DNA of 64,000 nt from a virus. Position numbers and translations under genes: made by a program. The first letter of the stretch is position 1, and each line of letters starts with the position of its first letter. The stretch spans positions 10,983 to 74,982 of the IMG/VR virus record IMGVR_UViG_3300017917_001616; one strand, given 5' to 3'. Of the stretch, positions 3,833 to 9,765 are shown piece by piece. A model generated the notes under the pieces. The model ran no database searches, was not told the DNA's origin, and worked only from the letters and a program-made list of their open reading frames with translations.

Positions 3833-4312
3833 ATGCCAGGACCAAAACCTACTGTATCTAAAGAAGATATTATTGATCTTATAAGCCAAGGATATCTCAA
3901 AAAAGAAATTGCTACTAAGTTAAATGTATCGTTATCGACTATTAAAAGACACAGTTCGGGACTAATTACAAAAAGAATAAGCTCTAAATATATTTGTCGA
4001 ACATGTAGTATAGAAGGTAAAGAACATTTTTATAAAGATGCAAAGTATCAATGTAAATCTTGTTGGAATAAAAGATCATATACTGCTACTAAATCTAGAA
4101 TTGCAGAATATATGGAATCTAGAGGTGGTGCAAAATGTCAAATATGTGGTTATGATAAATGTGTAGCTGCTTTAGATTTTCATCATAGAGATCCTAATGA
4201 AAAGGATCCGTCATGGAACAGAAGTTGGAGTATTAAAAGATTAAAAACTGAACTTGACAAATGTGATATATTATGTTCAAATTGTCATAGAGAATTACAT
4301 TGGTTAAGTTAA
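3833..4312 (+). CDS. HNH homing endonuclease with N-terminal HTH
   Basis: HTH, CxxC pairs, ALDFHHRDP...LCSNCHRELH; AT-rich insertion between tRNAs. Confidence 0.85.
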   Translation: MPGPKPTVSKEDIIDLISQGYLKKEIATKLNVSLSTIKRHSSGLITKRISSKYICRTCSIEGKEHFYKDAKYQCKSCWNKRSYTATKSRIAEYMESRGGAKCQICGYDKCVAALDFHHRDPNEKDPSWNRSWSIKRLKTELDKCDILCSNCHRELHWLS

Positions 4313-4662: not shown

Positions 4663-5268
4663 ATGATTAAAGTCCAAGGCAAACTTCCTAGAGACGTAGT
4701 AGTTGCTTGCAGCGGCGGCGTTGATAGTATGGCTATTGTTGATTTTCTAAAAAGAAATCATCGTATTACTCTACAGTTTGTGCATCATGGCACGGAAACT
4801 AGTGAACAAGCACACCAGTTTCTAGTGCAATATGCTGCAGATAATCAACTTAAACTATACACGTCACATATCAACACTGATCTTCCTAAAGGCGTAAGTC
4901 AAGAAGAACACTGGAGAAACGAACGTTATAAAATTTTTAATGCTTGGCAGAAACCGGTTATTACTTGTCATCATTTAGATGATTGTGTAGAGACTTGGAT
5001 TTGGTCAAGTATGCACGGCGAGGGTAAAGTTATTCCCTACCAAAATGAAAATGTAATTAGGCCTTTTAGACTAAACAAAAAACATGAGTTTATCAATTGG
5101 TGTAAACGAAAAAATGTAAGTTGGATTGAAGATAAATCAAATCTTGACACATCATATATTAGAAACTATATTCGTAACAATATTGTAGAACAACTGTTAG
5201 TTATTAATCCAGGCTTACATAAAGTAATCGCAAAGAAAATTGAACAAGAACACAAAGGACACATGTAA
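4663..5268 (+). CDS. tilS: tRNA(Ile)-lysidine synthetase (minimal catalytic domain)
   Basis: PP-loop SGGVDS, HHLDDxxET, IRP, EDKSN..Y.RN.IR motifs. Confidence 0.9.
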   Translation: MIKVQGKLPRDVVVACSGGVDSMAIVDFLKRNHRITLQFVHHGTETSEQAHQFLVQYAADNQLKLYTSHINTDLPKGVSQEEHWRNERYKIFNAWQKPVITCHHLDDCVETWIWSSMHGEGKVIPYQNENVIRPFRLNKKHEFINWCKRKNVSWIEDKSNLDTSYIRNYIRNNIVEQLLVINPGLHKVIAKKIEQEHKGHM

Positions 5269-5840
5269 TGGAAATCTCACTACGTAAAGCAAACGCACTA
5301 CAACACGCCATCAACGAGATGCTAGGCACACTAGACCTTAGCACTGAAGTCTCGATTAATGAATTCGAGAAGCCAAGCGAAAAGGTAACCGAAGCAACTG
5401 CTCGCTTTGCTACACACATGGCTACTCGTAGCAAGCTAATTGCTGTGCTTTACGAGATTCGCAAGGCTGTTGCAGATGCAAATGCAGCGTCTGGGATCGA
5501 CGGGCACCTTGCAGACGTAGCAATGCTAGACAAAGATATCCAGCTATATGGGCGTCTAAGCAAGCTAGAGCCTGCAGTGGCTAACGATGTGCTAGTCGGT
5601 AAGCTAGGCAAGATTAAGGGACGTGACAAAGCAGACGTTTACGGGCGTTTCGGCGACGACACTGTCACAACTAACATCTTCGATAAGGAAAAGATCGAAG
5701 AATTCAAGTCAGAGCTTGCTCGTCTGAAGCGAGCAAAGACTGCACTGCAAGATGAATTGCTAGAGCTTAACGTAAGCACTACAATCACACTGGACGACGA
5801 AACAGAGCGTTTCCTTGTTCGTGCAGGAATCGTAGAATAA
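5268..5840 (+). CDS. Coiled-coil protein, possibly DIP1984/septicolysin-like
   Basis: MxISLRKANAL start and LQDELLELNVSTTI end resemble the DIP1984-type helical hairpin pattern; family call is inference. Confidence 0.5.
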   Translation: MEISLRKANALQHAINEMLGTLDLSTEVSINEFEKPSEKVTEATARFATHMATRSKLIAVLYEIRKAVADANAASGIDGHLADVAMLDKDIQLYGRLSKLEPAVANDVLVGKLGKIKGRDKADVYGRFGDDTVTTNIFDKEKIEEFKSELARLKRAKTALQDELLELNVSTTITLDDETERFLVRAGIVE

Positions 5841-5889
5841 GTTTTGGTAGATGCAGGGCAAGGTAACTTGCCCGAAACTACCCGGAGTA

Positions 5890-6119
5890 GGAGAGAGAAA
5901 CGAGAATAAAGGCGGGCAAGCGTTACTTGCATATTCAAACGATCGGTTTTTGATCTCCGCTGTGTGTTCCGATTTTATTATATTCGTCTTAATTGACACT
6001 GCATTTTGATAATCGGAAATATAGGCATTGTAGATTGCGTGTTGTTTGTTGCAAAAGTAGGTCTGTATACCACGCTACATGCACTTTGCTGGATCTTTAT
6101 TACTCACTCTTTCCTCTCT
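5890..6119 (+). ncRNA. Putative structured RNA downstream of the coiled-coil gene
   Basis: Ends complementary (gagagagaaa/gagaataaag with ctttattactc/tttcctctct); internal TTG repeats at 7-nt spacing. Confidence 0.5.
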
Positions 6120-6130
6120 GTTTTAGTTTA

Positions 6131-6207
6131 GCCCTTGTAGGCCAATTGGTAGAGTCGGCGGATTCAAAATCCGCATAGTGTCGGTTCGAGTCCGACCAAG
6201 GGCACCA
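6131..6207 (+). tRNA. tRNA-Leu(CAA), short variable loop
   Basis: gcgga-ttcaaaa-tccgc, CCA. Confidence 0.88.
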
Positions 6208-8907: not shown

Positions 8908-9765
8908 ATGGGCGGTATAGCGTCCGACTTAAGGGTAAGTGCAGTAATGCACCCAAAGCAAGGTTTCCTATAAACTTGCGCTGTAGCAATACAGTCCATC
9001 TATGCAAGCCTGAACTAGAGTTGACTCGGTTATCCGAAAGCAACTCCCGTCCGTAGAAAGGCGGTAGGCAGTAAGTTAGGAATGGTGTCCGAAAGGATAG
9101 TCGCAGAGCCAGTCGGTGAGCGATAAGAGGGTTGGCGCCCAAACACCGTTCAGCCAAACTAACGAATGCTGAAAGTTAACAGGTAGCTACAGAGTCTGAG
9201 CCCGCAAGCAAAGGCATGGTAGCATCTTGAGAGTGGAAGGGTTAGGCCCCGGATACTTGAAAAGACGTTGAGTAGTCCGCAAGACGAAAGACAGTTGGTG
9301 TGTTGTATTCTGTATCTAACAAGATATGGAGCAACTGGGGCAGCACATCGAAGTAGGTTCGCAATATTGCATAACGGTAATGCAATCGTATTATCAAACG
9401 ACAGACTGTGGGTTCGATTCCCACTGTTGCACACAAAAGCGAAAGACTGTCCCGGTATACTACGAAAGGTGGTTAATGCCACACTCGAAAGAGAATGTGG
9501 TCTACAGATGCTCGCAAGGCGGACGTAGTTGTTCGGAAAGATAGCGTAACTTCTTAGCGGAAGTGAACTGCTCGCAAGGCAGGCGAAGGATAGAAGGACG
9601 AGTAGTAGTATGCGACGAGAGAAACGCCACTCTCCAAAAAAGGCACCACTGGAAGATACAGGATGACCGTAAAAGGCTCCTGTGGATAACGAGAGAACGT
9701 GGCTCGCAAGGCTAACGGTAATGCTCAAAGGCTTCCATCCTATGCTGTAATCTCAAGCTAGGCAA
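8908..9765 (+). ncRNA. GOLLD-like giant ncRNA
   Basis: ~860 nt, no credible ORF, dense GNRA-capped hairpins (gcaa, gaaa), in a phage tRNA cluster, 3' end gctgtaatctcaagc; matches my recollection of GOLLD. Confidence 0.7.
9361..9430 (+). ncRNA. tRNA-like domain embedded in the GOLLD-like RNA
   Basis: gcaata/tgttgc acceptor, D arm, 8-nt anticodon loop, gtgggttcgattcccac T arm, no CCA. Confidence 0.65.

What the first reader, a model, noticed from the sequence alone, without database searches (positions are those of the whole stretch)
5268..6119. Coiled-coil protein gene followed by a closed RNA with 7-nt-periodic UUG repeats: candidate RNP module
Seen: the 190-aa helical protein is followed by a ~230-nt non-coding stretch whose purine-rich 5' end pairs with a pyrimidine-rich 3' end. 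Inside, TTG triplets end at exactly 6030, 6037, 6044 and 6051, with further YTG at 6001, 6008 and 6065. Inference: the protein termini resemble DIP1984/septicolysin-like oligomeric helical-hairpin proteins. Phased triplets are what an oligomeric ring would read, as TRAP reads NAG repeats. This may be a protein plus cognate ncRNA system, placed next to tilS in the tRNA island.
Basis: partly seen in the sequence, partly recalled or inferred. Interest (0 to 1): 0.72.

Follow-up and report, generated by a model that had tools for sequence, protein, structure and literature searches.

The report
Phage UG-heptad RNA with partner protein
Directly behind a small helical-protein gene, this jumbo phage encodes a conserved folded RNA of about 280 bases that displays a UG every seventh base. 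RNA and gene travel together in hundreds of phages, including lab-grown Caulobacter phages, so they probably form an undescribed RNA-protein particle of unknown function.

Summary
Window 5841-6121 (+) is a structured RNA with a 5' hairpin, a 23-bp purine/pyrimidine closing helix and an internal helix. All three helices are supported by compensatory changes across 51 distinct homologues.

Almost the only invariant bases are eight single-stranded UG dinucleotides in 7-nt register, arranged 2+4+2. Their G's are at 6001, 6008, 6030, 6037, 6044, 6051, 6081 and 6088. The repeat unit is UUGY-NNN.

The RNA matches no Rfam family. The 190-aa protein (5268-5840) matches no Pfam, PHROG or NCBIfam family. 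Its best fold match is DIP1984 (PDB 3KDQ).

RNA and gene are always adjacent on the same strand: 78/78 viral loci, 76/76 testable metagenome loci and 29/29 testable loci found from the RNA alone. Their order and spacing vary. Where the RNA comes first it has its own sigma70 promoter or abuts a tRNA.

Caulobacter phages CcrColossus and CcrPW carry the same pair. There the RNA core diverges about 4%, against 22% at third codon positions.

Most likely this is a phage ribonucleoprotein in which several protein copies read the UG sites. Binding was not tested and the function is unknown. Earlier agents of this scan reported the same or a closely related family on other DNA.

The parts
5268..5840 (+). 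Gene of the 190-aa helical partner protein. Its start overlaps the stop of the upstream TilS-like ORF (ATGTAATGG).
   Evidence: ORF. 590 homologues. 1667 cluster representatives at 50% identity with E <= 1e-3, the 150 listed all 184-214 aa with the match spanning the whole protein. AF2 pLDDT 91.8. Best fold match 3KDQ. No Pfam, PHROG or NCBIfam family.
5841..6121 (+). UG-heptad RNA, whole element. It starts 1 nt after the stop codon and ends 9 nt before tRNA-Leu(CAA).
   Evidence: nhmmer hit 5842-6125. CM hit 5881-6121. Fold z = -4.5. Covariation. No Rfam match.
5846..5882 (+). P1 hairpin. The base GGUAG/CUACC is conserved and the apical part is hypervariable.
   Evidence: Helix 1: 7 pairs, 6 with changes on both sides, 92.8% of cells paired. 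The apical part is swapped between close relatives.
5883..5912 (+). P2 closing helix, 5' strand, almost all purines.
   Evidence: Helices 2 and 3: 23 pairs, all with changes on both sides.
6095..6120 (+). P2 closing helix, 3' strand, almost all pyrimidines, followed by a U-rich tail.
   Evidence: Many G-U pairs are compatible only with a + strand transcript. U-rich tails are visible in the alignments.
5960..5975 (+). P5 helix, 5' strand. Includes the invariant UG 5965-5966, which is paired.
   Evidence: Helices 4 and 5: 11 pairs, 9 with changes on both sides.
6011..6025 (+). P5 helix, 3' strand (consensus CUGGAAAUA).
6000..6008 (+). UG pair a (UGCAUUUUG) in the apical loop of P5. Its G's are at 6001 and 6008.
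   Evidence: Invariant columns.
6029..6051 (+). Heptad block b: four UUG at a 7-nt period, with G's at 6030, 6037, 6044 and 6051.
   Evidence: Shuffle test. Invariant columns. The longest run is 4 in 51 of 66 distinct RNAs and 6 in 9 of them.
6057..6078 (+). P6 variable hairpin. It is absent in some relatives, where blocks b and c fuse into six in-phase heptads.
   Evidence: Alignments.
6080..6088 (+). UG pair c (UGCACUUUG). Its G's are at 6081 and 6088.
   Evidence: Invariant columns.
6131..6207 (+). tRNA-Leu(CAA), context only. RNase P cleavage at its 5' end would release the RNA's 3' end. It is not a conserved neighbour.
   Evidence: The same arrangement occurs in L001/L004 and L071.

Best explanation
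The locus is a two-part phage module: a stable, discrete, structured RNA of about 280 nt and its cognate 190-aa helical protein. P1, the long closing helix P2 and P5 form a scaffold. The scaffold presents eight single-stranded UUGY sites in 7-nt register, arranged 2+4+2, or 2+6 where hairpin P6 is missing. I infer that several copies of the neighbouring protein bind these sites, one protomer per UG or one dimer per UG-N5-UG pair, to form a defined ribonucleoprotein. Shown here: the RNA is real, its structure covaries, the UG heptads are invariant, the RNA and gene are strictly co-inherited, the RNA has its own promoter or processing context, and it is under purifying selection. Inferred: direct binding, stoichiometry and cellular role. 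What the particle does is unknown.
For: 1. Structure. On 51 distinct RNAs 90.7% of cells pair, against 78.3% in shuffles (0/500 reach it) and 39-48% when the partner is slid by 1-3 columns. 38 of 47 pairs show changes on both sides.
2. Conserved bases. Invariant columns are almost only UG dinucleotides 7 nt apart. 95 of 98 distinct RNAs keep all eight. The unit profile is Y-N-N-N-U-U-G.
3. Co-inheritance. The RNA was found in 78/78 protein loci of IMG/VR. It was found in 76/79 metagenome loci, and the other 3 have at most 183 nt of downstream flank. The protein was found in 29/29 testable loci reached through the RNA motif alone. The strand is always the same. The RNA may lie 1-5 nt after the stop, after a 50-480 nt insert or an inserted gene, or upstream of the gene.
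4. Independent RNA. In RNA-first loci a TTGACT-17-TATAAT promoter ends about 6 nt before the RNA 5' end, or the RNA abuts a tRNA CCA end.
5. Selection. In 16 close pairs substitution rates were 0.7% at UUGY positions, 3.2% at paired positions and 13% at other RNA positions, against 25% at third codon positions of the adjacent gene. Between CcrColossus and CcrPW the RNA core differs about 4%, against 22% at third positions.
6. Distant cultured members. Caulobacter phages carry the protein (28% identity) followed by an RNA with the same architecture. The covariance model places it exactly there at E about 1e-4. The 4xTTG heptad pattern occurs nowhere else in either 280-308 kb genome.
7. Protein. 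Invariant R6, K7, R65, K89, K115, K154 and K157, plus conserved aromatic residues, would suit nucleic-acid binding.
8. Spacers versus protein. The protein sequence does not track the heptad spacer alleles. This fits reading of the fixed UUGY rather than of the spacers.
Against: - No binding, expression or stoichiometry data were obtainable.
- The fold match to DIP1984 gives no function and stands only slightly above generic helical-hairpin matches (Z 10.0 against 9.6).
- Adjacency can also arise from co-regulation.
- A remote homologue in Pseudomonas phage PA5oct (24% identity, E 2e-3) has no heptad RNA anywhere in its genome. The pairing is therefore not universal for the wider fold family.
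- The heptad spacers are not simple neutral linkers. A pure read-the-UG-only model does not predict this.
Confidence: 0.55

Rival explanations
1. The RNA is real but works with another partner, such as a host factor, RNA polymerase or the ribosome, or on its own in the manner of GOLLD or ROOL. The neighbouring protein would be linked only by co-expression or by a shared pathway.
For: No binding evidence exists. The module often lies in stable-RNA islands with tRNAs and GOLLD. An RNA-polymerase-omega-like gene sits between RNA and protein in about 9 loci. PA5oct keeps a remote protein homologue without the RNA.
Against: Strict two-way co-occurrence on the same strand holds across more than 150 loci while all other neighbours change. 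It persists down to 28% protein identity in Caulobacter phages. No locus with enough flank had only one of the two.
Confidence: 0.2
2. The module is a guide-like ribonucleoprotein. The protein coats the heptad tract and holds the fixed UUGY. The variable NNN triplets are exposed and together specify a nucleic-acid target. This would be functionally analogous to VIPR vrRNAs (fixed GGY, variable NN) but built on an unrelated helical protein.
For: - The architecture is a fixed motif alternating with variable spacers, and it is phage-encoded (VIPR described in 10.64898/2026.04.26.720920).
- Spacer sets are swapped en bloc between nearly identical scaffolds. L059 and L052 differ at 10/15 spacer positions, 9/9 in block b, against 16% at third codon positions (P about 1e-5).
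- Two heptad alleles and two P1-loop alleles occur in all four combinations.
- Elsewhere spacers stay unchanged while third positions diverge 34-41%.
- 98 RNAs carry 75 different block-b spacer sets.
Against: - Only three full spacers lie in the main block, plus one each in pairs a and c. That is 9-15 variable nt, little for specificity.
- Spacers are compositionally biased and position-specific: CAYN after the first UG of each pair, and UAGA in 23 of 98 third spacers.
- On average spacers evolve at about the neutral rate (28% against 25%).
- The protein is all-helical and has none of the RAMP features.
- No target was searched for or found.
- Recombination alone could produce the allele pattern.
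Confidence: 0.12
3. The RNA is a cis-regulatory element of the protein's own mRNA. The protein would bind the phased triplets in its transcript to control termination or translation, as TRAP and HutP do.
For: In most loci the RNA starts 1-5 nt after the stop codon and so lies on the same transcript. In L003 a promoter precedes the gene and a terminator follows the RNA. UAG triplets with 4-nt spacers, the same 7-nt period, are how HutP reads hut mRNA (my own knowledge).
Against: The RNA can lie upstream or downstream of the gene. It can be separated from the gene by another gene, a tRNA or a 300-nt element, and it can have its own promoter. The scaffold is large and conserved, with no alternative terminator/antiterminator pairing. 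Several G+C-rich helices covary, which is more than an operator site would need.
Confidence: 0.08
4. The element is not an RNA. It would be a DNA-level repeat such as iterons, an origin or a packaging site, or a small protein-coding gene.
For: Short ORFs of 41-61 aa overlap the region in the window. The TTG repeats are also direct DNA repeats.
Against: Compensatory changes include many G-U pairs that would be A-C mismatches on the other strand. A 7-nt conservation period is incompatible with codons. Indels are not multiples of three, and the longest stop-free stretch has a median of 48 aa with no conserved frame. A 7-bp period does not match the DNA helical repeat.
Confidence: 0.03

Closest known systems
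HutP-hut mRNA and TRAP-trp leader (Bacillus): oligomeric proteins that read phased triplets. From my own knowledge.
   Same: Short fixed triplets are repeated at a fixed spacing in single-stranded RNA. HutP reads UAG with 4-nt spacers, the same 7-nt period. The spacers are largely free in sequence. The inferred reading is by several identical protein subunits.
   Different: HutP and TRAP are ligand-activated regulators that act on mRNA leaders and are not helical bundles. Here the repeats sit inside a discrete 280-nt RNA closed by a 23-bp helix. That RNA has its own promoter or processing context and is always co-inherited with a helical protein. There are eight sites, arranged 2+4+2.
VIPR systems: Vipr RAMP protein plus vrRNA (bioRxiv 10.64898/2026.04.26.720920 and 10.64898/2026.04.26.720927)
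   Same: Both are phage-encoded. The RNA alternates a fixed trinucleotide with variable bases. In VIPR the protein oligomerises along the RNA. The RNA gene lies next to the protein gene. A structured part caps the repeat tract.
   Different: VIPR has a 5-nt period (GGY/NN), 9-16 repeats, an RRM/RAMP protein and a shown DNA-targeting function. Here the period is 7 nt (UUGY/NNN) with 4+2+2 repeats, the protein is all-helical and DIP1984-like, and no target or function is known.
DIP1984 family / DUF6847 (PF20935; PDB 3KDQ; often annotated 'septicolysin')
   Same: 3KDQ is the best structural match. Foldseek gives E 0.017, probability 1.0, TM 0.52/0.62. VIA-align gives Z 10.0 with 142 of 152 residues aligned. 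In the protein atlas a neighbouring cluster has PF20935 on 15% of its members.
   Different: No sequence-level match to PF20935 or NF038048. The DIP1984 family itself has no known function, and the literature gives only annotation-level mentions.
Y RNA-Ro60 (Rsr) and other RNA plus adjacent protein-gene pairs. From my own knowledge.
   Same: A small stable RNA is closed by a long helix formed from its 5' and 3' ends. It is encoded next to its protein partner and is also found in phages.
   Different: No TROVE/Ro protein is present, there is no tRNA-like domain, and no Rfam Y RNA hit. Y RNAs have no phased UG repeats.
GOLLD and ROOL large phage-associated RNAs (Rfam RF02032; bioRxiv 10.1101/2024.12.08.627333)
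   Same: They share the habitat of phage tRNA islands. GOLLD lies 3 kb downstream in this window and within about 0.6-2 kb upstream of the protein gene in four relatives. Their function is also unknown.
   Different: They are different RNAs and give no Rfam match to this element. They are far larger and form RNA-only assemblies, and no dedicated protein gene accompanies them.

Membership tests
Any Rfam 15 RNA family | Covariance-model match, at the gathering score or at least E <= 1 | tested here: not met
   No match in window 5841-6130 at E <= 1. No match on the homologous RNAs of 11 loci at E <= 0.1.
DIP1984 / DUF6847 (PF20935, NF038048) | Match to the family's sequence profile | tested here: not met
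   PF20935 is absent from the matches of the window protein and from the 25 most frequent families among the 37 members scanned at E <= 10. NF038048 is likewise absent. A profile search of PDB sequences does not find 3KDQ.
DIP1984 / DUF6847 (PF20935, NF038048) | Same fold as PDB 3KDQ | tested here: met
   3KDQ is the top hit of Foldseek (probability 1.0, TM 0.52/0.62) and of VIA-align (Z 10.0, 142 residues, rmsd 5.2). It is the only hit covering nearly the whole chain. The margin over helical-hairpin background is small.
TRAP / HutP-type triplet-reading regulators | Phased triplet repeats in single-stranded RNA | tested here: met
   UUG at a 7-nt period. The sites are invariant across 95 of 98 RNAs and lie outside the covarying helices.
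TRAP / HutP-type triplet-reading regulators | TRAP or HutP protein fold and family | tested here: not met
   The model is nearly all helical. There is no Pfam match to TrpBP or HutP.
TRAP / HutP-type triplet-reading regulators | Repeats lie in an mRNA leader that overlaps terminator/antiterminator alternatives | tested here: not met
   The RNA lies after the gene or is independently transcribed, and it is closed by a 23-bp helix.
VIPR (Vipr + vrRNA) | RAMP protein with RRM core, G-loop and thumb | tested here: not met
   The AF2 model has six helices and only two 3-residue strands. The fold searches listed no RAMP or Cas7.
VIPR (Vipr + vrRNA) | 9-16 tandem YNNGG units with a 5-nt period | tested here: not met
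   The period is 7 and the unit is UUGYNNN. The main run has 4 units, or 6 in some relatives.
VIPR (Vipr + vrRNA) | Hypervariable spacer bases that specify a target | tested here: inconclusive
   Spacers are swapped en bloc in some close pairs and conserved in others, and they evolve at about the neutral rate on average. No target search was done.
UG-heptad RNA family of this report: membership of the Caulobacter phage RNAs | Covariance-model match at the position after the homologous gene, plus UUG heptads | tested here: met
   Model R1 hits L127 3636-3861 (24.2 bits, E 1.3e-4) and L128 3655-3881 (25.7 bits, E 5.6e-5) over its full length. Six in-phase UUG occur there and are unique in each genome. 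Fold z = -6.1. E-values from the shortened calibration are rough.

The most novel reading that the evidence does not exclude
The module is a programmable, guide-like ribonucleoprotein built on a non-RAMP helical protein. Protomers clamp the fixed UUGY of each heptad and expose the variable triplets. Read together across blocks a, b and c, the triplets would recognise a gapped nucleic-acid target. This would be a second, independently evolved noncontiguous code beside VIPR. En-bloc spacer swaps between near-identical scaffolds would then be retargeting events.
Probability: 0.12. Interest if true: 0.95.

Novelty: categorically new. Interest (0 to 1): 0.8.

Why it matters
Neither the RNA nor the protein belongs to any described family, yet the pair is widespread. 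There are more than 500 metagenomic loci, 338 IMG/VR loci and 1667 protein clusters at 50% identity. It is under strong purifying selection in jumbo phages from fresh and marine waters.

A structured RNA whose only invariant bases are eight UGs on a 7-nt ruler is an unusual design. It points to a defined multi-copy protein-RNA assembly.

Jumbo-phage stable-RNA islands hold several RNAs of unknown role, such as GOLLD and, from my own knowledge, T4 RNAs C and D. This one comes with a dedicated protein handle and so makes the question experimentally approachable. It is also present in CcrColossus and CcrPW, which infect the genetically tractable Caulobacter crescentus. Pull-down, cryo-EM and knockouts are therefore feasible now.

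If the spacers prove to be specificity determinants, this would be a new kind of RNA-guided system.

Tried and rejected
- **Homo-oligomer prediction.** Nothing was folded, so oligomer state is untested.
- **Sequence-family searches for the protein.** Pfam, PHROGs, NCBIfam and a PDB sequence profile gave only coiled-coil noise.
- **Nucleotide search of cultured phages.** It matched only the tRNA.
- **Genome collection of 185k species.** Only two MAG contigs hit, both carrying the RNA and probably phage. I did not pursue a bacterial origin.
- **RNAalifold helices 6 and 7.** These pair UGCA and UUG motifs with each other. They show no change on both sides and I dropped them from the model.
- **Full-length covariance model.** A model without P1 was built instead.
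- **PA5oct.** The remote homologue gp304 has no heptad RNA within 18 kb or anywhere in the genome, and its annotated lncRNA003 is unrelated.
- **Period-7 and period-8 arrays in bioRxiv 10.64898/2026.10.21.760802.** They are a different architecture: an array plus its reverse complement, in Chloroflexota and Patescibacteria, with no linked protein.
- **Ideas considered and dropped.** An anti-Shine-Dalgarno mimic fails because CCUCC is not conserved in the 3' strand. An anticodon-loop mimic fails because position 37 would be a pyrimidine. No Rfam hit or architecture supports 6S, tmRNA, RNase P or SRP RNA.
Full report
**Context.** The window is part of a 74,982-nt IMG/VR contig that CheckV estimates at 19% complete. 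This implies a jumbo phage of roughly 390 kb. The first 20 kb hold 36 tRNA genes and a GOLLD RNA at 9295-9759. The finding lies between a TilS-like PP-loop ORF (4663-5268) and tRNA-Leu(CAA) (6131-6207).

**Checking the observation.**
- ORF 5268-5840 encodes 190 aa.
- The next 290 nt fold at -91.6 kcal/mol, z = -4.5. There is a 5' hairpin, and a long helix joins the purine-rich strand 5883-5912 to the pyrimidine-rich strand 6095-6120.
- TTG triplets end at 6030, 6037, 6044 and 6051, as reported.
- A run of four or more TTG at period 7 arose in 4 of 20,000 dinucleotide-preserving shuffles. No other period from 3 to 12 gives a run longer than 2.
- No Rfam family matches at E <= 1.

**Relatives.** The protein has 590 homologues in the word-indexed search. 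A full profile search gave 1667 cluster representatives at 50% identity with E <= 1e-3; the 150 listed are 184-214 aa with the match spanning the whole protein, so no fused form was seen. IMG/VR holds 338 loci and JGI/ENA metagenomes more than 500. Many lie on contigs of 300-380 kb.

An HMM of the downstream region found the same RNA on the same strand in several independent samples:

| Sample | RNA and protein together |
|---|---|
| IMG/VR loci with enough flank | 78 of 78 |
| Metagenome loci | 76 of 79; the other three have at most 183 nt of downstream flank |
| Loci found from an RNA-only motif | 35 true RNAs; 29 of 29 testable have the protein |

For the six RNA-first loci without the protein, the expected side is cut by the locus end.

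The arrangement is flexible. The RNA lies 1-5 nt after the stop in most loci. It can also lie after a 50-480 nt insert, after an inserted gene, or upstream of the gene. All other neighbours vary. A gp23-type major capsid gene is upstream in 16 of 53 loci. An RNA-polymerase-omega-like gene (PF01192) is upstream in about nine. tRNAs are nearby in many loci and absent in others.

**Anatomy of the RNA.** On 51 distinct sequences the predicted P1, P2 (23 bp) and P5 helices are 86-93% paired. 38 of 47 pairs of the whole predicted structure change on both sides. Shuffled partners give 78% pairing (0 of 500 reach the observed value), and partners slid by 1-3 columns give 39-48%. Frequent G-U pairs fix the strand as +.

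Almost all invariant columns are UG dinucleotides. One is paired in P5 (5965-5966). The other eight are unpaired, with G's at 6001, 6008 (pair a, in the P5 loop), 6030, 6037, 6044, 6051 (block b) and 6081, 6088 (pair c). 95 of 98 distinct RNAs keep all eight.

Where hairpin P6 is missing, b and c fuse into six in-phase heptads, so the total stays at eight. The unit is UUGY-NNN.

**A gene of its own.** In RNA-first loci a TTGACT/TTGACA-17-TATAAT promoter ends about 6 nt before the RNA's first base, or the RNA starts right after a tRNA CCA end. Many members end in a U-rich tail after P2 or are followed by a terminator. In the window, RNase P cleavage of tRNA-Leu 9 nt downstream would trim the 3' end. 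This last point is inference.

**Selection.** In 16 close pairs the substitution rates were as follows:

| Position class | Substitution rate |
|---|---|
| UUGY positions | 0.7% |
| Paired positions | 3.2% |
| Other RNA positions | 13% |
| Heptad spacers | 28% |
| Third codon positions of the adjacent gene | 25% |

**Cultured members.** tblastn found a 28%-identical, full-length homologue in Caulobacter phages CcrColossus (gp272) and CcrPW.
- Each is followed by an unannotated gap of about 285 nt.
- That gap contains a 5' hairpin, a purine/pyrimidine closing helix, a P5-like helix, one UG-N5-UG pair and six in-phase UUG.
- It folds with z = -6.1.
- A covariance model built only from the aquatic family hits exactly there over its full length, at E about 1e-4. 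These E-values are rough.
- The 4xTTG heptad pattern occurs nowhere else in either genome, and the reversed control gives none.
- Between the two phages third codon positions differ 22%, the RNA core about 4% and the spacers 4 of about 24.
- BFVD adds structural homologues in Vibrio phage Vp_R1 and Erwinia phage pEa_SNUABM_47. I could not inspect their loci.
- A weaker homologue in Pseudomonas phage PA5oct (24% identity; the record notes peptide evidence) has no heptad RNA. This marks a limit of the association.

**The protein.** AF2 gives a confident model (pLDDT 91.8) of long antiparallel helices with two short terminal strands. PDB 3KDQ (DIP1984, function unknown) is the top hit of both Foldseek and VIA-align. 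It is the only hit spanning the whole chain, although its Z of 10.0 is barely above generic helical hairpins. No sequence model of that family matches. Invariant residues include seven Arg/Lys.

**Interpretation.** The data establish a new structured RNA and its obligate genomic partnership with a new protein family. The most economical mechanism is a ribonucleoprotein in which several protein copies read the eight UUGY sites. The 2/4/2 (or 2/6) grouping suggests dimers that each read a UG-N5-UG pair. This is inference and was not testable here.

One unexplained feature keeps a more novel reading alive. Spacer triplets are conserved in many close pairs: 0 of 15 changes while synonymous sites differ 34-41%. 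In others they are replaced en bloc: 9 of 9 block-b positions between L059 and L052, whose scaffolds differ 7%. Two heptad alleles and two P1-loop alleles occur in all four combinations. This could reflect recombination. It could also mean the spacers carry specificity, as in the recently described VIPR systems. VIPR differs in protein fold, period and repeat number.

**Earlier work and novelty.** Earlier agents of this scan reported the same or closely related RNA-protein pairs on other genomes. I re-derived the core facts independently. New here are the eight-site count, the RNA-first search, the promoter and tRNA-end contexts, the spacer-allele pattern, the Caulobacter phage members and the PA5oct boundary. 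Literature searches found no description of this RNA or protein.

Noticed in passing
window 9295-9759 (+): GOLLD RNA (RF02032, 195 bits, E 1.6e-54) with an embedded tRNA-like element at 9360-9432. GOLLD also lies within about 0.6-2 kb upstream of the protein gene in L023, L031, L064 and L082.
   Followed up: partly
L076:2422-2712, L054:3074-3376, L064:3074-3364, L082:3074-3367, L039:1981-2279, L023:3069-3365: A second conserved non-coding element of about 300 nt starts right after the partner protein's stop codon in one subclade. It reads CAGACCCCG ... GGACAGGGUAACAACUCAGUCUAGGGC ... GGCUAGACACUUUAU and has covarying hairpins. It has no Rfam match and is absent from the window. It may be another new RNA tied to the same protein.
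   Followed up: partly
L070:2269-2499, L082:2275-2520, L074:2251-2541, L040:2301-2495: Small genes of 65-96 aa with the RNA polymerase omega / Rpb6 domain (PF01192, E 1e-11 to 1e-15) lie directly upstream of the partner-protein gene, between RNA and protein, in about nine divergent phages. A phage-encoded omega next to this module may hint at a link to transcription.
   Followed up: partly
L032:1197-2387, L034:1220-2389 and 14 other loci: In 16 of 53 representative loci the module lies directly downstream of a gp23-type major capsid gene (PF07068, E 1e-99). In L034 (the only such locus read further upstream) a scaffold-like gene precedes the capsid gene. The module is thus placed among late structural genes rather than in a tRNA island.
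   Followed up: partly
L059, L062, L051, L066, L052 (RNA alignment): Two alleles of the heptad spacers and two alleles of the P1 apical hairpin occur in all four combinations on an otherwise nearly identical RNA scaffold.
   Followed up: partly
L006:3462-3529 and L038:3538-3608: The freshwater-2 RNA motif (RF02980; 54 bits, above its gathering score, in L006) lies about 130 nt downstream of the UG-heptad RNA.
   Followed up: no
window 3833-4312 (+) and 4663-5268 (+): An HNH endonuclease with an N-terminal HTH is inserted between tRNA genes. A short 201-aa TilS-like PP-loop protein has a stop that overlaps the start of the partner-protein gene.
   Followed up: no
No UG-heptad RNA exists in that genome.
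   Followed up: partly
BFVD hits: Structural homologues of the partner protein also appear in the giant eukaryotic viruses Catovirus CTV1 (TM 0.60) and Yasminevirus (TM 0.58).
   Followed up: no
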